Source: a virus (lineage: Duplodnaviria > Heunggongvirae > Uroviricota > Caudoviricetes). From it: DNA of 40,320 nucleotides. This document shows, in pieces, positions 25,449 through 36,789 of this stretch. The position numbers and the translations under genes are program-made. The notes beneath the pieces are model-generated. The model was not told the DNA's origin, searched no databases, and was given only the letters and a program-made list of their open reading frames with translations. Within the stretch, counting starts at the first letter, position 1. Each line of letters starts with the position of its first letter. The stretch is taken from IMG/VR virus record IMGVR_UViG_2698536428_000017. One strand, 5' to 3'.

Positions 25449-26123
25449 ATGATTGATACTACCGATATCCTTTCTCAAAACATCAAGTACCTGATGGACA
25501 AAGCCAAGATAAGCTCGATAACTGAGCTGGCACGTCGGTTACAGCTGAACCAACCAACGCTACACAGGCTGGTATCAGGAGAGGTGAAAGATCCGAAATA
25601 CGCAACGTTAAAGCAGATCGCCGACTACTTCCACGTGTCACCAATAGACTTGGCAGAAAGGAGCCTTCAAGAAATGGAGAAAGAGGACGCGACAGGTATA
25701 AAAACGTATATTTCTCTTAGGTTTAATAAAGTACCTGTTTTGGGAAACACTCAGCTAGGCGTTGGAGGACTTTGGAGCGACACCCAATATTCAGTAGGTA
25801 GCAGTGATGGTTTCATATACTGGCCGACAAAGGATGAAGATGCATACGCCCTGAAATGTGTTGGTGATTCAATGATGCCTAGAATCAAAGAGGGGGAGTT
25901 CGTAATCGTCGAACCCAACCACGACTACACTCCTGGTGATGAAGTACTTGTGGTTACCCGGGAAGGTGAGGTCATGGTTAAAACCTTCTTGTTCGAACGC
26001 GATGGCCTGTTCCATCTAATGTCTGTAAATGAAGATCATCCACCAGTCAGAGTACCACGCGAAAACATTGAAAAAATCCATTACGTGGCGGGGATCGCCA
26101 AATCCGCGCTACGTATGTACTAA
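25449..26123 (+). CDS. CI-like repressor (N-terminal HTH, C-terminal S24 LexA-like peptidase)
   Basis: 224 aa; HTH region (SITELARRLQLNQPTLHRLVSG); S24 catalytic motifs GDSM and downstream Lys (VMVKTF). Confidence 0.8.
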   Translation: MIDTTDILSQNIKYLMDKAKISSITELARRLQLNQPTLHRLVSGEVKDPKYATLKQIADYFHVSPIDLAERSLQEMEKEDATGIKTYISLRFNKVPVLGNTQLGVGGLWSDTQYSVGSSDGFIYWPTKDEDAYALKCVGDSMMPRIKEGEFVIVEPNHDYTPGDEVLVVTREGEVMVKTFLFERDGLFHLMSVNEDHPPVRVPRENIEKIHYVAGIAKSALRMY

Positions 26124-26460: not shown

Positions 26461-26613
26461 GGGGTGGGGTGAAGATCAGTCCATTGAGTCAATCCGAAGT
26501 TCAGCATCTACCACTACACCACTAGACTGGCCCCCTGAATCTCCAGACAACCAGTATCACTTATTTAAGTGATAGTCTTAATACTAGTTTTTAGACTAGT
26601 CATTGGAGAACAG

Positions 26614-26979
26614 ATGATTGATGTCTTAGGGCCGGAGAAACGCAGACGGCGTACCACACAGGAAAAGATCGCAATTGTTCAGCAGAGCTTTGAACCGGGG
26701 ATGACGGTCTCCCTCGTTGCCCGGCAACATGGTGTAGCAGCCAGCCAGTTATTTCTCTGGCGTAAGCAATACCAGGAAGGAAGTCTTACTGCTGTCGCCG
26801 CCGGAGAACAGGTTGTTCCTGCCTCTGAACTTGCTGCCGCCATGAAGCAGATTAAAGAACTCCAGCGCCTGCTCGGCAAGAAAACGATGGAAAATGAACT
26901 CCTCAAAGAAGCCGTTGAATATGGACGGGCAAAAAAGTGGATAGCGCACGCGCCCTTATTGCCCGGGGATGGGGAGTAA
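26614..26979 (+). CDS. insC: IS2 transposase OrfA (InsC)
   Basis: Translation [41 protein letters not shown]... matches IS2 InsC; true ATG at 26614 (track ORF begins upstream). Confidence 0.9.
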
Positions 26980-27842
26980 GCTTAGTCAGCCGTTGTCTCC
27001 GGGTGTCGCGTGCGCAGTTGCACGTCATTCTCAGACGAACCGATGACTGGATGGATGGCCGCCGCAGTCGTCACACTGATGATACGGATGTGCTTCTCCG
27101 TATACACCATGTTATCGGAGAGCTGCCCACGTATGGTTATCGTCGGGTATGGGCGCTGCTTCGCAGACAGGCAGAACTTGATGGTATGCCTGCGATCAAT
27201 GCCAAACGTGTTTACCGGATCATGCGCCAGAATGCGCTGTTGCTTGAGCGAAAACCTGCTGTACCGCCATCGAAACGGGCACATACAGGCAGAGTGGCCG
27301 TGAAAGAAAGCAATCAGCGATGGTGCTCTGACGGGTTCGAGTTCTGCTGTGATAACGGAGAGAGACTGCGTGTCACGTTCGCGCTGGACTGCTGTGATCG
27401 TGAGGCACTGCACTGGGCGGTCACTACCGGCGGCTTCAACAGTGAAACAGTACAGGACGTCATGCTGGGAGCGGTGGAACGCCGCTTCGGCAACGATCTT
27501 CCGTCGTCTCCAGTGGAGTGGCTGACGGATAATGGTTCATGCTACCGGGCTAATGAAACACGCCAGTTCGCCCGGATGTTGGGACTTGAACCGAAGAACA
27601 CGGCGGTGCGGAGTCCGGAGAGTAACGGAATAGCAGAGAGCTTCGTGAAAACGATAAAGCGTGACTACATCAGTATCATGCCCAAACCAGACGGGTTAAC
27701 GGCAGCAAAGAACTTTGCAGAGGCGTTCGAGCATTATAACGAATGGCATCCGCATAGTGCGCTGGGTTATCGCTCGCCACGGGAATATCTGCGGCAGCGG
27801 GCTTGTAATGGGTTAAGTGATAACAGATGTCTGGAAATATAG
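26937..27842 (+). CDS. insD: IS2 transposase OrfB (InsD), DDE catalytic domain
   Basis: 301 aa matching IS2 InsD as recalled; overlaps insC in -1 frame, A6G slippery run present. Confidence 0.9.
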
Positions 27843-27877
27843 GGGCAAATCCAACCACCACCAAAGAGAACTGCTAA

Positions 27878-28402
27878 TCATCTGGCAGGTTGTAACGGTG
27901 CAGGAGTTTTGCCACTGACTTCTATATTTCGGGGAAATTTATATTCAGCGGAGCATTTATGACACTTGAGAATTTTATAAGCGGCATTAGAAGTATGGTA
28001 TTGAAGTATAGACTTCATACCCGACTCATAGCATGTAGTACAAAGATAATGAGGCTTGAACTCAGGATCGTCAGTAGGCTTCAGTACATAGACCACCGTA
28101 TTGGTAATCGGGTGGTACATTTCATAGTTCATTTTCTCACTATCCCAATCCTGTTTCTTTTCCAGAAGGGATTCGAGTTCAACAATGCGCTGTTTAGCTT
28201 CGTTCAAAAGCTCCGTTAGTGCGAATTGTCCAGTACGCGCATCAATTAGTTTATCAAGTAGATCGATAGTTTTACTTTTAACATTGTAATCCACCTGCAA
28301 CGCATTAACTTCTTTTGCTAAATCAACAGCACCTTTCAAAGCACCACCAGCACTAGTGGCCGCCTCAGTTATACGCCGTACAAGTCCTTTTTCTTCAGAC
28401 AT
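27878..28402 (-). CDS. Hypothetical coiled-coil plus zinc-ribbon protein, 174 aa
   Basis: ATG at 28402; C-terminal CxxC (CTTC) and CxxC (CHKC) pairs about 20 residues apart; about 42% GC; convergent with repressor gene. Confidence 0.6.
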   Translation of the reverse strand: MSEEKGLVRRITEAATSAGGALKGAVDLAKEVNALQVDYNVKSKTIDLLDKLIDARTGQFALTELLNEAKQRIVELESLLEKKQDWDSEKMNYEMYHPITNTVVYVLKPTDDPEFKPHYLCTTCYESGMKSILQYHTSNAAYKILKCHKCSAEYKFPRNIEVSGKTPAPLQPAR

Positions 28403-30994: not shown

Positions 30995-31543
30995 ATGAAA
31001 CTGAAGCTGAACAATGTTCGTCTGGCCTTCCCGTCTCTGTTTGAAGCTAAAACTGTAAACGGCGAAGGCGATCCACGTTTCTCCGCAGTATTTTTAATGT
31101 CACCCAAACACCCACAACTGGAAGAAATCCGTAAAGCTATGAAGCAGGTAGCGAAGGAAAAATGGGGAGAGAAGTGGGAGCCCATTTATAACCAACTGGA
31201 GAAAAAACTCAATCTGTGCCTGCATGATGGTGATGAAAAAGCAGAGTATGAAGGCTTCCCCGGCAATTTCTTCCTGAATGCTGCTAACAAAGCGCGCCCA
31301 GCTGTTCTTGATCGCGATCGTTCGCCACTTATTCAGGCTGATGGACGTCCCTATGCAGGGTGCTATGTAAACGCCGTTATCGATATCTGGGCACAGGACA
31401 ATAATTTCGGTAAACGCATTAATGCCTCACTCGGCGGAGTCCAGTTCCTGCGAGACGGCGATGCATTCGCTGGCGGCGGAGTGGCAAGCGCTGACGATTT
31501 CGACGATATCAGCGAAGGTGCTGATGCTGAAGCACTGATTTAA
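30995..31543 (+). CDS. ssDNA-binding-like protein (DUF2815-like by recollection)
   Basis: 182 aa; N-terminus MKLKLNNVRLAFPSLFEAK; acidic C-terminal tail (DDFDDISEGADAEALI) as in SSB proteins. Confidence 0.5.
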   Translation: MKLKLNNVRLAFPSLFEAKTVNGEGDPRFSAVFLMSPKHPQLEEIRKAMKQVAKEKWGEKWEPIYNQLEKKLNLCLHDGDEKAEYEGFPGNFFLNAANKARPAVLDRDRSPLIQADGRPYAGCYVNAVIDIWAQDNNFGKRINASLGGVQFLRDGDAFAGGGVASADDFDDISEGADAEALI

Positions 31544-31559
31544 CCCTACTTCATAGACG

Positions 31560-31577
31560 CCCGGTTAAATACCGGGC
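31560..31577. other. Stable hairpin between convergent genes
   Basis: GCCCGG-N7-CCGGGC; no clean U-tract on either strand, so not a canonical terminator. Confidence 0.3.
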
Positions 31578-31595
31578 TGCTGATTAGGCGTATAA

Positions 31596-32225
31596 TCACT
31601 CAGGAATCTTAATCTTCCTCAATTCTTTATTTAGTTCACAGATCTTCTTCTTAGACGGGAAAGTATCATACATCCAAAAACCAACAGTCTCTAAAACTAT
31701 TGTCATAACCATATACACAAGATAATTTAAAAGGCCTTCATTTTGCCCTATGGAAATAATGCAGATAATAGAAAAAAGGATAAACAGCACAAAACACAGA
31801 AAGGAAAACAGACGACTAATAATAAATAAAAAACCTGAAAAATTAACATTGATGAAAAACACTCCGTTATCTTTCTCTATATAATTCTGAAGCTTAATCA
31901 CCTGATTTATATACTGTCTTTTTTCTAATCTATTGCAAATGTAAATAACATCACTTCGGTTATAAGAAGATTGCAATTTCAGCGCATCACGAATAATTTT
32001 ATCATTTATTCTTTTTTCTATGGCACTCTTATCCTCCTTATCCAGATAACGTTCATACTTAACTAAATATAAAATTAACTTCTTGACATATTTAGGCTCT
32101 TTATACTTATAATTAAAAATGATCTTTCTTATCCAGACTCCCATAACAATCAAACATGAAAAAATATATCCAGCTATTTTCTCCAGATGCTCTGTATGGT
32201 CAATCAAGTATTGGATCATATGCAT
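31596..32225 (-). CDS. Hypothetical multi-pass membrane protein, 209 aa, strongly AT-rich
   Basis: About 23-35% GC in sampled 60-nt lines against about 52% flanking; predicted TM near residues 18-38 and two C-terminal TM helices; antisense to the replication operon. Confidence 0.6.
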   Translation of the reverse strand: MHMIQYLIDHTEHLEKIAGYIFSCLIVMGVWIRKIIFNYKYKEPKYVKKLILYLVKYERYLDKEDKSAIEKRINDKIIRDALKLQSSYNRSDVIYICNRLEKRQYINQVIKLQNYIEKDNGVFFINVNFSGFLFIISRLFSFLCFVLFILFSIICIISIGQNEGLLNYLVYMVMTIVLETVGFWMYDTFPSKKKICELNKELRKIKIPE

Positions 32226-32271
32226 AATTAATCTTTTAATCAGTTAATAGAATAAAAACCAAGGTAAACAC

Positions 32272-34335
32272 ATGTCCAATATACTATGGGGCGACCTGGA
32301 AACCTATTGCGAAATCCCTATTACGAACGGTACCCATGCGTATGCCGAAGGCGTTGAAGTGATGCTGTTCGCATGGGCTATCAACGACGGGCCAGTAAAC
32401 GTATGGGATATCACTGCCGGTGGTGGTATTCCACACGGCTTATACGAAGCAATCGCAGCCCCTGAAACCCTGCTTTATTTTCATAACTCTCACTTCGACC
32501 GCACCGTCCTGCGTTATGCAATGCCGCGACTGGCACCGCCAGTCGAACGTTGGCGCGACACGATGGTGCAGGCGCTGGCGCACGGTCTCCCGGGGTCTCT
32601 GGGGGAACTCTGCGAAGTACTAGGCGTCCCGCAAGACAAAGCGAAGGACAAAGAAGGTAAAGCGCTGATCCAGCTGTTCTGTAAGCCACGCCCGAAAAAC
32701 AGCAAACTGCGCCGGGCCACCAGCAAAACCCACCCGGAAGAATGGCGGCGCTTTGTTGCTTACGCCGGACTGGATATCGAGGCAATGCGCGAAGTCTATA
32801 AACGTCTGCCGAAGTGGAATTATCAGGGGACAGAACTGGCGCTCTGGCATCGTGATCAGCAGATCAATGACCGGGGCGTCTGCATGGACGTGGAACTCGC
32901 ACGCGCTGCGATCGACGCGGTAGACCAGGAACAAAAGCGCCTGGCAAAGCGTACACAGGAAATGACTGATGGCGAAGTGCAGGCAGCCACACAACGAGAC
33001 GCGTTGATTAAGCACATTGTTGAATCCTACGGTGTGGAGCTACCAGACATGCAACGCAGTACTCTGGAACGTCGTATTGCCGACCCCGATTTACCATCTG
33101 CCGTGAAAGAACTGCTGGCTATCCGCCTGCAGGCCAGTACTACCAGCACCAGTAAATACAAGGCACTGATGAAAGGCGTAAGCCACGACGGGCGCTTACG
33201 CGGTACGCTACAGTTCTGCGGGGCGTCACGTACCGGTCGTTGGGCCGGACGGCTATTCCAGCCCCAGAACCTTCCCCGCCCTTCACTAAAACAGGAACAA
33301 ATAGACGAAGGCATCGAAGCACTGAAAGCCGGATGTGCAGACCTGCTGTTTGACAATATCATGGAACTAACCAGTTCAGCGTTACGTGGCTGCATTATCG
33401 CGCCAACAGGCAAAAAGCTGGTGGTAAGTGACTTGTCGAACATTGAAGGCCGTATGCTGGCATGGCTGGCGGGAGAAGAATGGAAACTGAATGCATTCAG
33501 AGAGTACGACGCCGGAACGGGTCCGGACTTATATAAACTGGCGTATGCAAAAGCTTTCGATATTGCACCAGATGATGTTGATAAACACATGCGTCAGATC
33601 GGTAAAGTCATGGAACTCGGTCTGGGTTATGGAGGAGGTGTATCGGCTTTCATCACTTTTGCTCTGGTTTACGGTCTCGATCTCGACGGGCTGGCGAACG
33701 CCGCACTGCCAAACATTCCCCGCGATGTTATCCGCGAGGCGAAAAGCTGGTACGACGAATCGGTTAAACGTAAATCGACCTACGGGCTTTCTGAACGGGT
33801 ATTTATCGCCTGCGACTCACTTAAACGTCTCTGGCGCCGGGCGCATCCCGCGACCTGTGATTTCTGGTACGAACTGGAGTGCACCGTCCGCACAGCAATC
33901 GCCACACCGCAAAAAACATTGTATTGCGGTTATCTTAAAATCCGCCGCGATGGCGCGTGGCTGCGCATACAGCTACCATCCGGACGCGCTGTATGCTACC
34001 CGTCTCCGGTTATCGAACAAGGGAATATCACCTACATGGGTGTTAACTCTTATTCGCGTAAATGGCAACGACTCAAAACCTACGGCGGAAAGCTGGTGGA
34101 GAACGTCACCCAGGCGGCCGCCCGCGACGTTCTGGCCGGAAACATGCCGCTTATCGAAGATGCCGGTTACAGCATTGTGCTGACGGTACACGACGAGGTG
34201 ATCACCGAATCACCTGACACAGAAGATTTCAACGATAAAGCGCTTTCCGCGCTTCTCTCCACTAACCCCGAATGGGCGCCAGATATCCCACTGAACGCTG
34301 GCGGTTTTGAGGCGTACCACTACCGTAAGGATTAA
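32272..34335 (+). CDS. DNA polymerase, family A with 3'-5' exonuclease domain
   Basis: 687 aa; exo motif DLETY near N-terminus; Pol motif A (DLSNIEGR), motif B ([16 protein letters not shown]), motif C (VHDEV). Confidence 0.85.
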
Positions 34336-35115: not shown

Positions 35116-35685
35116 TTAGTCAATGCCTTTTTGATTGAACTTCTGATTCTCCAGTATGCTTTGCAGCTCAATATTATCATTTGCAGCGGTTTGTTTATGC
35201 TCATGATATTTTTCTTGCGTATAATTTCTTTCTCTTAGTTTCTGTGCGTAATTATTAGAAATAATATCATGACGATCTTGTAATACTTGTTCAAGTTGAC
35301 TTTTAAAGTCCTCTATCTTTTCATTAGAAATAACATTTTTGTACTTTTCAATATCACGGCGAAGTTCTTTTTCTTTCTTCTTATTAATGCTTAATAACTG
35401 TCGATTAACGCTACCTAAGGACCATTTAAACCCAATCGACTTTATCCAATGCGCCAGAAACATAGCGCAACTGGGAAGCATTAATAAAAGAAATGGCTTT
35501 ATTGTATTTAAATCAGAACCAATATACGGAAAACGACCGTCCCACGAGGACACCAGTAATGTTAAAAAACCAGTGATGCCACCAGCAGCAACATTAGAAA
35601 TCAGAGGGACTTTTTCGTAGCTATCAGGTTTAGAAGCGCTACTCAAACGTCCCTCCTTTGACTGATCTTCCAGCACGAATGGCAT
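35116..35685 (-). CDS. Cassette gene 3: membrane protein with two TM helices and a charged coiled-coil C-terminus, 189 aa
   Basis: ATG at 35685 with weak RBS, overlapping the previous ORF by 47 nt; low GC; convergent with VRR-NUC, 4 bp between stops. Confidence 0.5.
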   Translation of the reverse strand: MPFVLEDQSKEGRLSSASKPDSYEKVPLISNVAAGGITGFLTLLVSSWDGRFPYIGSDLNTIKPFLLLMLPSCAMFLAHWIKSIGFKWSLGSVNRQLLSINKKKEKELRRDIEKYKNVISNEKIEDFKSQLEQVLQDRHDIISNNYAQKLRERNYTQEKYHEHKQTAANDNIELQSILENQKFNQKGID

Positions 35686-35887
35686 TCATTGCAATTTTGT
35701 AAAATTCATCATCAGAAGAGACATCAACGACATCGCGACGGACAACTCCTTCTGAGTCAACACATTCAAGAACAAGATGATGTTTAGGCATAAGCGCAAA
35801 GCGTAACCGGTCAAACCCCATCTTAAGAACCCAATATAGTACGGGAAGCAGGCTAAAAAAAGCCAGCCAAAAAGCAAAAGCAATCAT
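35639..35887 (-). CDS. Cassette gene 2: small membrane protein, 82 aa
   Basis: ATG at 35887 with GGGGAGGGGG RBS; N-terminal TM helix (IAFAFWLAFFSLLPVLYWVL); competing 65-aa ORF in another frame starts with TTG and was not preferred. Confidence 0.5.
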   Translation of the reverse strand: MIAFAFWLAFFSLLPVLYWVLKMGFDRLRFALMPKHHLVLECVDSEGVVRRDVVDVSSDDEFYKIAMNAIRAGRSVKGGTFE

Positions 35888-35910
35888 AGCCCCCTCCCCA
35901 TGTGAATCTA

Positions 35911-36789
35911 CTATAAGATGCCGTGTACTTTAACAACTATGTACGTTTTGTCCAGCGAATTCAAGTTCTCACGGACGAGCAAATCAACGCAGTAAGCATC
36001 ACTAAAAACACCAGGTTCTCTTCCCGTACTAACACGTTGTAAGAACTCAGTATCTTCTATAGACACGCTGATTGTGTCATCGCCATAGTTGACTCGCCAG
36101 CCTGTGTTTTTATCCTTATGAATAGTCAAAAATGTGATTAGAGCCTCTTCAATCACCCTTTCAGACAAGGACTGCACTACAGGAACGCGCCTATATCTGA
36201 ACGGTTCAATATTATCTTCGTGCACCTTAATCAGCTCAACCCCCTGTTGAGTTGAAATTTTAAGCGATTCGTATCCTTCCTTTTGCAAAGGATTATGAAT
36301 TAACTTCGATAAGGATTTGCGTATGCTTGGTGAGGCAAGTAAAGGCCGGAAATATGACGGGGCTATAATTTCCTCACCATCATCCATAACTATTTTACAG
36401 TCTCCTTCCGCTGTTAAAGTCAACCGTTTTATTTGCCTACCATTGATCTGACGAATTAAGTCAATGAGAGTATTTCCTGCTGCGAGTGCAGTTGTACCTC
36501 CAAGCCCAATAATGCTTAATATATTCAAATGGTCAAGTGGATTTTGAATAACATCAATCAAATACTCAAATGAGCCTTCCTTAAAAGGCTCAACCTCAAC
36601 ATTAATACACTCACTAGTGCCATTGACAACCAAATTAACTTCTTTAAGCAAGTTGTTTAGTCCATTCAATGACTCAGTTAAAACATCCAAATCTATTTTA
36701 TGATCTGCTAGTGCGGGACCATCATATTTAACAACTAATTTATCAGTAATATTTTCTTCTTGCTGGACATCTGTATAAGCTGAGGTCAT
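35911..36789 (-). CDS. Cassette gene 1: hypothetical soluble protein, 292 aa
   Basis: ATG at 36789 with AAGGA RBS; about 33-38% GC; no recognisable motif; divergent from SNF2 gene with 67 bp between starts. Confidence 0.6.
   Translation of the reverse strand: MTSAYTDVQQEENITDKLVVKYDGPALADHKIDLDVLTESLNGLNNLLKEVNLVVNGTSECINVEVEPFKEGSFEYLIDVIQNPLDHLNILSIIGLGGTTALAAGNTLIDLIRQINGRQIKRLTLTAEGDCKIVMDDGEEIIAPSYFRPLLASPSIRKSLSKLIHNPLQKEGYESLKISTQQGVELIKVHEDNIEPFRYRRVPVVQSLSERVIEEALITFLTIHKDKNTGWRVNYGDDTISVSIEDTEFLQRVSTGREPGVFSDAYCVDLLVRENLNSLDKTYIVVKVHGIL

What the first reader, a model, noticed from the sequence alone, without database searches (positions are those of the whole stretch)
31596..32225. 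Very AT-rich single membrane-protein gene inserted antisense between the SSB-like gene and the DNA polymerase
This 209-aa ORF is about 30% GC, the lowest in the window. It lies on the opposite strand to the flanking operon, 46 bp from the polymerase start, and encodes one N-terminal and two C-terminal TM helices around a Lys/Tyr-rich middle region. Composition indicates recent horizontal acquisition; AT-rich DNA of this kind is a typical target of H-NS silencing. Single-gene membrane Abi or exclusion proteins have this layout.
Basis: partly seen in the sequence, partly recalled or inferred. Interest (0 to 1): 0.65.

Follow-up and report, generated by a model that had tools for sequence, protein, structure and literature searches.

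The report
Prophage cargo gene: small membrane protein
An E. coli prophage carries, backwards between its DNA-binding and DNA-polymerase genes, a swappable AT-rich gene for a small three-helix inner-membrane protein of an uncharacterised family, laid out like known phage-exclusion genes but with no tested function.

Summary
ORF 31596-32225 (-) is 209 aa and 29.5% GC, the lowest in the window. It lies antisense, 46 nt from polA, and has an N-terminal TM helix, a K/Y-rich middle and a C-terminal TM hairpin.

It is a real gene. dN/dS is about 0.3, and homologues at 17-43% identity keep the same layout.

It is cargo in a polymorphic slot of an inducible E. coli myovirus prophage integrated at yfhL.
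- Of 159 complete genomes matching the flanking region, 67 carry this allele.
- 13 carry a 199-aa remote homologue (hhalign 98%).
- The rest carry unrelated genes (Nmad5, BRO-N, AntA, other small membrane proteins).
- No empty slot was found.

Relatives sit as single genes in other accessory slots: the P2 S-V/orf30 slot, next to Q in a lambdoid prophage, an ICE-like contig, and Xenorhabdus chromosomes.

"Recent acquisition" is not supported. The gene's dS equals that of its flanks, and low GC is a family trait.

There is no match to any Pfam, PADLOC or NCBIfam family, or to a specific solved fold. The closest analogue is P22 SieA, which shares the topology, AT-richness and antisense placement, but homology was tested and not found.

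Superinfection exclusion or abortive infection is the best guess, not a result. The gene is a new member of a known kind, of moderate interest.

The parts
31596..32225 (-). CDS of the 209-aa cargo protein (WP_000551021 in RefSeq genomes), GC 0.295
   Evidence: purifying selection; family
32115..32177 (-). codons 17-37: N-terminal TM helix. It is preceded by a 16-aa acidic peptide predicted to be periplasmic
   Evidence: hydropathy; AF2 helix 11-37; charge bias
31842..32114 (-). codons 38-128: K/Y-rich helical middle domain, predicted cytoplasmic (+20/-12). It carries the conserved motif YL.kY..YL..eDK..i...In.EI
31665..31841 (-). codons 129-187: TM2-loop-TM3 hairpin with a 4-aa loop. E179 in TM3 is conserved in 13 of 14 sequences
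31614..31661 (-). codons 189-204: conserved cytoplasmic tail motif FP....I..[IL]N.EL.K. N199 and L202 are invariant
32226..32278 (-). 46-nt divergent gap plus the first polA codons. The only promoter-like match upstream of the gene is here (TGGACA-18-TATTCT, 9/12), and there is no clear Shine-Dalgarno. The polA RBS lies on the other strand. This stretch is swapped together with the cassette
   Evidence: weak evidence
31544..31595 (.). 52-nt spacer between the SSB stop and the cargo stop. It holds a GC-rich hairpin at 31559-31577 with no U-run, and marks the left edge of the cassette
   Evidence: RNA fold -24 kcal/mol, z -4.6; no terminator call
30995..31543 (+). left anchor of the slot: DUF2815/Enc34-type ssDNA-binding protein
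   Evidence: PF10991, 7.6e-44
32272..34335 (+). right anchor of the slot: family A DNA polymerase

Best explanation
The gene is a moron-type accessory cassette in a cargo slot of a temperate E. coli myovirus. That slot runs from the SSB stop codon to the polA start codon.

The product is a small inner-membrane protein. Its predicted topology is N-out and C-in: a 16-aa acidic periplasmic tip, TM1, a roughly 90-aa basic helical cytoplasmic domain, a TM2-TM3 hairpin, and a conserved basic cytoplasmic tail.

Because it points against the replication operon, it is most likely transcribed on its own in the lysogen, when that operon is silent. My best guess for function is that it protects the lysogen from other phages at the inner membrane. 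The more likely mode is blocking genome entry, in the manner of P22 SieA. The alternative mode is collapsing the membrane on infection (Abi).

Shown: gene reality, membrane architecture, slot polymorphism, an allelic series within one family, and mobility between different mobile elements.

Inferred: topology, expression in the lysogen, and the whole anti-phage function. The confidence figure refers to the anti-phage function. The structural and genomic description I hold at about 0.9.
For: 1. Variable slot. 159 E. coli genomes match the 2.1-kb query spanning the slot, a few on one flank only. 67 have this gene and it is always at this place. 13 have a 199-aa antisense gene that is a remote homologue (hhalign probability 98.1%, E 6.7e-14, 190 columns, 17% identity). 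Others have Nmad5, BRO-N, AntA, or 89-, 166- and 229-aa antisense ORFs. Homology between cassettes breaks at the SSB stop and the polA ATG.

2. Single-gene mobility into accessory slots of unrelated elements:
- the P2-like S-V slot, which is the orf30 region known for horizontally acquired genes (PMC3091744, PMC6823313);
- a lambdoid prophage next to Q, beside GAPS4-type PDDEXK, MTase+HNH and HD genes;
- antisense between PAPS reductase and RecT;
- an ICE-like contig;
- the same slot in a K. aerogenes prophage.
No partner gene is conserved across these contexts.

3. Same design as proven exclusion genes. P22 sieA is AT-rich (0.337 against 0.471), lies antisense after a lytic operon with its own promoter, and encodes a 3-TM inner-membrane protein. 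It comes in three types below 30% identity that share a C-tail motif. P22 sieB lies antisense inside the early-left operon.

4. A second antisense AT-rich block in the same operon carries a PADLOC defence candidate, PDC-S42 (6e-40). This prophage therefore does place defence-type cargo in this way.

5. omega of about 0.3 is higher than the flanks (0.03-0.18), and alleles are deeply divergent. This fits accessory genes shaped by conflict.
Against: - No member matches any known defence family. The only exception is one weak partial hit, P0010 against PDC-S47 at 4e-4.
- No alternative cargo of this particular slot is a known defence gene.
- Homology to SieA and SieB was tested and not found (probability 0.2-0.4%).
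- Promoter evidence is weak and no terminator-like site was found.
- Orientation is not antisense in every context. In the P2-like and lambdoid cases the gene is co-directional with its neighbours.
- Several Xenorhabdus species encode close homologues. In the one examined it sits between housekeeping genes (SLT and thrS), which would also fit a host-physiology role.
- Two natural alleles are broken: a nonsense codon in DEC5B and a 93-bp in-frame deletion in F1022.
- Fold searches gave only generic helical matches.
Confidence: 0.4

Rival explanations
1. It is a membrane abortive-infection effector rather than an entry block. The cytoplasmic domain senses an infection cue, and the TM hairpin (with the conserved E179) oligomerises to depolarise the membrane, killing the infected cell before phage release.
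Confidence: 0.2
2. It is an orphan immunity protein against a membrane-acting bacteriocin or contact-dependent effector, such as a pore-forming colicin or a CDI or T6SS ionophore. The prophage would carry it as lysogenic conversion.
For: From established knowledge, immunity genes for pore-forming colicins encode small 3-4-TM inner-membrane proteins and are typically transcribed against the colicin operon from their own promoter. The family occurs in Xenorhabdus chromosomes, where it is the bulk of the named homologues and in one case lies outside any recognisable phage. One member lies near a Tlde1-domain gene.
Against: No Pfam colicin-immunity family was hit by any of 15 members, even at E<=1. 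A 90-aa cytoplasmic domain is atypical for such immunity proteins. No toxin gene is a conserved neighbour.
Confidence: 0.1
3. It serves the phage's own lytic cycle. Possible roles are lysis timing (holin or antiholin-like), or tethering replication to the membrane, given its place between SSB and polymerase.
For: It sits in the replication operon. There is a weak PHROG holin hit over 138-177 (E 0.066). Induced phages vB_EcoM-606R2, 689R2 and 611R5 retain the gene.
Against: The slot holds unrelated genes in most relatives, so no occupant is needed for replication. The lysis cassette (holin, GH24 endolysin) is elsewhere. Family members occur outside phages and at unrelated phage positions. The holin hit is not significant. 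The gene is antisense to the operon it would serve.
Confidence: 0.07
4. It is decaying, selfish or neutral cargo with no current function. AT-rich DNA would simply be tolerated in a recombination-prone intergenic slot.
For: omega is three to ten times higher than in the flanks. Two of seven sampled alleles are disrupted, although both were picked because they looked odd. No functional annotation exists anywhere.
Against: omega of about 0.3 is significantly below 1 (p=0.0066). A 209-codon open frame at 29.5% GC needs selection to persist. Architecture and motifs are conserved down to 17% identity across genera and element types. 65 or more of 67 E. coli copies are annotated as intact.
Confidence: 0.08

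Closest known systems
P22 SieA superinfection-exclusion protein (Pfam PF26849; PMC10883804)
   Same: Both are small inner-membrane proteins with the same predicted plan: a short N-terminus, TM1, a charged cytoplasmic middle, a TM hairpin and a short basic tail with a conserved aromatic-Pro...hydrophobic-Asn-Lys motif. Both genes are AT-rich relative to the phage (0.337 against 0.471 for sieA, 0.295 against 0.499 here). Both lie antisense, abutting a lytic operon. Both come in several sequence types below 30% identity at one locus.
   Different: There is no detectable homology by profile-profile comparison (probability 0.2-0.4%), and no PF26849 hit. This protein is about 45 aa longer, with a larger structured middle domain. 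The tail-motif spacing differs by two residues. It sits in a different phage type and a different genome position. SieA's injection block is demonstrated by experiment, whereas nothing is demonstrated here.
P22/lambda SieB (abortive-infection gene inside the early-left operon)
   Same: Both are single genes of about 190-210 aa, on the strand opposite to an early operon (sieB has its own mapped promoter), with lower GC than the phage (0.392).
   Different: There is no homology. SieB has only an N-terminal hydrophobic region by the same hydropathy test. No internal Esc-like start has been shown here.
Morons, and the variable regions of P2-like phages (orf30, Z/fun, TO regions; PMC3091744, PMC6823313)
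   Same: An extra gene of deviant composition sits between two genes that are conserved neighbours. One homologue (P0005, 38% identity) sits exactly in the P2 S-V/orf30 slot.
   Different: No empty version of the SSB-polA slot was found, so the pattern is cassette replacement rather than presence or absence. An autonomous promoter and terminator were not demonstrated.
PHROG 10579 (unknown function)
   Same: The query matches at 2e-109, and 10 of 11 family members tested match.
   Different: The PHROG carries no function, and its members are annotated from M28, which drops the N-terminal TM helix.

Membership tests
P22 SieA family (PF26849) | Sequence or profile homology to SieA | tested here: not met
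   hhalign of A4 against the SieA profile A9 gives probability 0.2%, and A5 against A9 gives 0.4%. The comparison with single-sequence SieA gives 0.2%. PF26849 was not among the Pfam hits of 15 members at E<=1.
P22 SieA family (PF26849) | Three-TM inner-membrane protein with a conserved C-terminal juxtamembrane motif | tested here: met
   Prediction only. Hydropathy and AF2 give TM segments at 17-37, 129-160 and 165-187. The conserved tail is FP....I..[IL]N.EL.K. It resembles, but is not superposable on, the SieA motif FxRYPxEAxxFNK.
P22 SieA family (PF26849) | Expressed from the prophage and blocks DNA injection of superinfecting phage | not testable with these tools
   This needs plating, K+ efflux and DNA-entry assays.
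SieB (P22/lambda Abi) | Homology to SieB | tested here: not met
   hhalign of A4 against P22 SieB gives probability 0.2%.
Known or candidate defence systems in PADLOC-DB 2.0 | HMM match to a system protein | tested here: not met
   The query has 0 hits at E<=1. Among 15 members, only P0010 residues 18-94 match PDC-S47, at 4e-4. The 199-aa subfamily representative has no hit.
Moron (Hendrix-type accessory cassette) | Lies between genes that are adjacent or conserved neighbours in related phages, and is variable among relatives | tested here: met
   67 of 159 genomes carry it and the others carry different cargo at the same junction. The cassette edges are at the SSB stop and the polA ATG. No empty junction was found.
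Moron (Hendrix-type accessory cassette) | Nucleotide composition deviates from the phage backbone | tested here: met
   GC is 0.295 against 0.499, and it is also 0.28-0.31 in homologues in other hosts.
Moron (Hendrix-type accessory cassette) | Own promoter and terminator, and expression from the repressed prophage | tested here: inconclusive
   There is one 9/12 sigma-70-like match overlapping the polA start, which is not above the shuffle expectation, and no terminator-like site. A stable 3' hairpin without a U-run is present. No expression data were available.
Pore-forming colicin immunity proteins | Match to Pfam immunity families and an adjacent or cognate toxin | tested here: not met
   There were no such Pfam hits, and no toxin neighbour in 11 contexts.
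Holins | Significant match to a holin family and a location in the lysis cassette | tested here: not met
   The only hit is PHROG 2508 at E 0.066. The phage holin and endolysin lie elsewhere.
H-NS-silenced xenogeneic DNA | H-NS occupancy in vivo | not testable with these tools
   AT-richness is met. The ETEC H10407 ChIP-seq paper holds no chromosomal H-NS peak table among its stored supplements.

The most novel reading that the evidence does not exclude
The 209-aa and 199-aa proteins and their relatives form a new family of single-protein, inner-membrane anti-phage exclusion or Abi factors. The family is restricted to Enterobacterales and is convergent in design with SieA but unrelated in sequence. 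It hops as a one-gene AT-rich cassette between accessory slots of myovirus, P2-like and lambdoid prophages and ICEs. The deeply diverged alleles at one slot would then record an arms race with the targeted phages.
Probability: 0.35. Interest if true: 0.6.

Novelty: new member of a known kind. Interest (0 to 1): 0.42.

Why it matters
If the protein does exclude phages, it adds a compact one-gene defence family that current defence-finder libraries miss. It is present in about 1.5% of complete E. coli genomes (80 of 5426), including O103:H2 and O45:H2 isolates, ETEC H10407 and the commensal IAI1.

It would also mark the SSB-polA junction of this prophage type as a cargo hotspot worth mining. The other antisense small membrane proteins in that slot are equally uncharacterised.

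The finding also shows that low GC in such cassettes is a stable family property and not a sign of recent arrival. That matters when composition is used to date horizontal transfer.

Tried and rejected
Searches for a known family:
- Pfam, NCBIfam, PADLOC and PHROGs scans of the query and of all family members gave nothing beyond PHROG 10579, which has no known function.
- A profile search against PDB sequences gave only E>1 noise.
- AF2 from the single sequence was poor (pLDDT 56). AF2 with the family alignment was usable (pLDDT 76.7, pTM 0.59).

Homology tests that failed:
- SieA and SieB homology was tested with profiles and rejected.
- The weak hits to TraS (E 0.1, one member) and holin (E 0.066) were rejected as noise.

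Searches that returned nothing:
- The search for related loci with the family alignment failed, because no stretch was conserved enough.
- tblastn against plasmids found no match. tblastn against phages found only the three vB_EcoM isolates.
- Literature searches for the accessions, the PHROG id, the phage names and the PDC ids found no papers.
- H-NS ChIP data for H10407 were sought but are not held.
- The terminator scan found none.
- The search for an empty SSB-polA junction found none in 110 loci.

Interpretation rejected:
- 'Recent acquisition' was rejected on dS parity with the flanks.

Full report
**What is there**

It runs 31596..32225 on the minus strand, starts with ATG and encodes 209 aa. 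Its GC content is 0.295 against 0.499 for the window, and the lowest-GC 630-bp windows of the whole sequence all fall on it. It lies between a DUF2815/Enc34-type ssDNA-binding protein gene (30995-31543, PF10991 7.6e-44) and a family A DNA polymerase gene (32272-34335). Both of these are on the plus strand, as is the DUF2800 PD-(D/E)XK nuclease gene upstream. The gap to the polA ATG is 46 nt and the gap to the SSB stop is 52 nt.

Hydropathy gives one N-terminal hydrophobic helix (about 17-37) and a C-terminal pair (about 129-160 and 165-187) around a middle region rich in K (10.5%) and Y (7.2%). AlphaFold2 with a family alignment (pLDDT 76.7, pTM 0.59) places helices at 11-37, 132-160 and 165-188. 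It models a helical middle domain with a short beta-hairpin.

**It is a real gene**

At this composition about 8% of random codons are stops, so 209 open codons are expected with a probability of about 3e-8 (my arithmetic).

Seven alleles from E. coli genomes show 12 synonymous and 18 non-synonymous changes, on 120 synonymous and 507 non-synonymous sites. That gives omega of about 0.35, with p = 0.0066 against neutrality. For the intact alleles compared with the window, omega is 0.26-0.29. The SSB and polA flanks give 0.03-0.18.

An exhaustive phmmer scan of 1.84 billion representative proteins found only ten relatives. A profile search added Xenorhabdus, Klebsiella aerogenes and Enterobacter proteins. 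All are about 200-218 aa with the same three hydrophobic segments and share these motifs:
- YL.kY..YL..eDK..i...In.EI in the middle domain;
- E179 in the last TM helix;
- FP....I..[IL]N.EL.K in the tail, with N199 and L202 invariant.

The N-terminal peptide is conserved at the protein level. This supports the M1 start rather than M28, which PHROG 10579 members use.

**Topology (inferred)**

Charge distribution is consistent across 15 members. The first 16 residues are net negative, the middle domain is +20/-12, the inter-helix loop is four residues, and the tail is +7/-3. By the positive-inside rule the protein is N-out and C-in. Nearly all of its soluble mass is then cytoplasmic, with only about 20 residues in the periplasm.

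**Genomic setting**

The window is a prophage integrated next to yfhL. It is identical over the 2.1-kb query spanning the slot to prophages of several E. coli strains, such as KOr019. It is nearly identical (99.4% or more) to those of O103:H2 12009 and ETEC H10407, and about 98.7% identical to that of IAI1. It is 98% identical to the isolated phages vB_EcoM-606R2, 689R2 and 611R5, so the prophage type is inducible.

The replication operon on the plus strand runs: two hypothetical genes, DUF2800, SSB, [this gene, antisense], polA, ANR, DUF4406, VRR-NUC, [three antisense genes], DEAD helicase. The integrase gene follows.

**The junction is a cargo slot**

Of 5426 complete E. coli genomes, 159 match the 2.1-kb query spanning the slot, a few on one flank only. 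Only 67 carry this gene, and it is always at this place. The others carry one of the following:
- a 199-aa antisense ORF (13 genomes);
- a 166-aa antisense protein with an N-terminal TM helix;
- Nmad5 plus an 89-aa two-TM antisense ORF;
- Nmad5 plus a 229-aa antisense ORF;
- BRO-N;
- AntA/AntB.

In 80 IMG/VR relatives of the SSB, 10 carry this gene by an exact 30-mer. Three of the more divergent loci that I read hold Nmad5+HNH, an SPFH-like lipoprotein, and a 174-aa N-TM protein.

Alignments show that homology between cassette types stops at the SSB stop codon, or just after its hairpin, and resumes at the polA ATG. Each cassette therefore brings its own polA ribosome-binding region. No junction with 61 nt or fewer between the two anchors was found in 110 loci. 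The pattern is replacement, not presence or absence.

**An allelic series**

The 199-aa alternative has the same architecture as the 209-aa protein. In a profile-profile comparison, with profiles built independently, it matches the 209-aa family at 98.1% probability and E 6.7e-14, over 190 columns at 17% identity. So 80 of the 159 E. coli prophages carry some member of this family in the slot, in two types that are almost unrecognisable to each other. A K. aerogenes prophage has the 199-aa type in the same slot.

**Mobility**

Other members are single genes with no conserved partner:
- between tail genes S and V of a P2-like Rahnella prophage, which is the orf30 region recognised as one of three regions of P2-like phages that collect horizontally acquired genes (PMC3091744; PMC6823313);
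- just upstream of Q in a lambdoid prophage, beside GAPS4-type PDDEXK, MTase+HNH and HD genes;
- antisense between PAPS reductase and RecT on a phage contig;
- next to an integrase;
- near TraG on an ICE-like contig;
- at the end of a CP4-57-like island;
- between SLT and thrS, or near Tn3/HicA remnants, in Xenorhabdus chromosomes.

**Composition and age**

The gene's synonymous divergence from other alleles (0.04-0.07) equals that of the flanking SSB (0.03-0.08) and polA (0.035-0.047). It has therefore travelled with this prophage lineage for as long as the lineage has been diverging.

Relatives at 25-43% identity are also 0.28-0.31 GC, in hosts or elements of 0.42-0.58 GC. One exception is at 0.40. 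Low GC is thus a maintained property of the family.

**Function**

The closest known analogue is P22 SieA. [quoted passage not shown] It comes in three types below 30% identity that share a C-terminal motif (PMC10883804). In P22, sieA lies antisense right after the late gene 16 with its own promoter, and its GC is 0.337 against 0.471 for the genome. sieB lies antisense inside the early-left operon.

The plan of SieA (TM1, charged middle, TM hairpin, basic tail ...YPGEANGFNKEFIKTIK) mirrors that of the present protein (...FPSKKKICELNKELRKIKIPE). However, profile-profile tests find no homology (probability 0.2-0.4%). I therefore file the protein as working like a SieA-type moron product, not as a member of that family.

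A second antisense AT-rich block in the same operon (35116-36789) contains a PADLOC candidate, PDC-S42 (6e-40). This shows that the prophage does carry defence-type cargo in the same manner.

Several points weigh against a defence role:
- No alternative cargo of this slot matches a known defence gene.
- Promoter evidence is a single 9/12 match overlapping the polA start, and no terminator-like site was found. There is only a stable hairpin without a U-run.
- The gene is not antisense in every context.
- Xenorhabdus keeps it among housekeeping genes.
- Two natural alleles are broken.

**Verdict**

- Accessory, variable, membrane-protein cargo: yes.
- Recent acquisition: no.
- H-NS silencing: untested.
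- Abi or exclusion function: plausible by analogy only.

The most likely mechanism is a lysogen-expressed inner-membrane protein that interferes with superinfecting phage at the membrane. I hold this at about 0.4 for any anti-phage role, with an entry block slightly favoured over Abi. The gene is a new, uncharacterised member of a familiar kind of element. It is of moderate interest, mainly as a well-defined candidate for experiment and as a marker of a cargo hotspot.

Noticed in passing
window 35116-36789 (-): A second AT-rich antisense block (GC 0.35-0.42) lies between VRR-NUC and the DEAD helicase. It has three genes: a 292-aa protein matching the PADLOC candidate PDC-S42 (6e-40; weak DUF7946), an 82-aa ORF and a 189-aa ORF (PHROGs 15510 and 15878, unknown function). 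O103:H2 12009 has a cytosine methyltransferase plus a hypothetical gene at the same place, so this is a second variable slot.
   Followed up: partly
window about 26527-27857: An IS3-family (IS2-like) element is present, with a 301-aa orfB at 26937-27842 and terminal inverted repeats at 26532-26563 and 27814-27845. It is inserted between the cI-like gene (25449-26123) and the antisense ORF 27878-28402. It is absent from the KOr019 prophage, whose annotated gene order downstream of this point matches the window. It could be polar on the rightward operon.
   Followed up: partly
window 27878-28402 (-): A third antisense ORF lies in the rightward region. It is 174 aa, has a coiled-coil-like N-terminal half and a C-terminal CxxC...CxxC pair, and sits in a dip to GC of about 0.41. 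RefSeq annotates it as hypothetical.
   Followed up: no
L003 5699-5810 and L008 5477-5588 (related E. coli prophages): In some relatives a TIR-domain protein gene follows polA directly, where this window has the ANR-family gene. This is another variable position, and its cargo is probably a defence gene.
   Followed up: no
L021 (DEC5B) and L022 (F1022), cargo gene: Natural loss-of-function variants exist. DEC5B has a nonsense codon at codon 63 (GAT TAG), and the gene is not annotated there. F1022 has an in-frame 93-bp deletion that removes 31 codons of the middle domain.
   Followed up: yes
window 31559-31577 and the same position in L002-L008: Every cassette type keeps a GC-rich hairpin just after the SSB stop, although the hairpin sequences differ. 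The BRO-N and AntA versions share the window's hairpin and add a T-run (GTGTTTTTG). In the window the T-run is missing.
   Followed up: partly
window 31614-31661 (-) compared with P22 sieA (L030 13336-13830): The conserved tail of this family (FP....I..LNKEL.K.K) looks like the conserved SieA tail (YPGEANGFNKEFIKTIK), but the spacing differs by two residues. No statistical support could be obtained. It may be convergence or chance.
   Followed up: partly
L005, L003 and L075 (SSB-polA slot): Nmad5, a nucleotide-modification-associated domain, is a frequent plus-strand occupant of the same slot. In strain A34 it is split into two ORFs. In Dhillonvirus phages a point mutation in nmad5 allows escape from the Tmn defence (PMC11846954).
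   Followed up: partly
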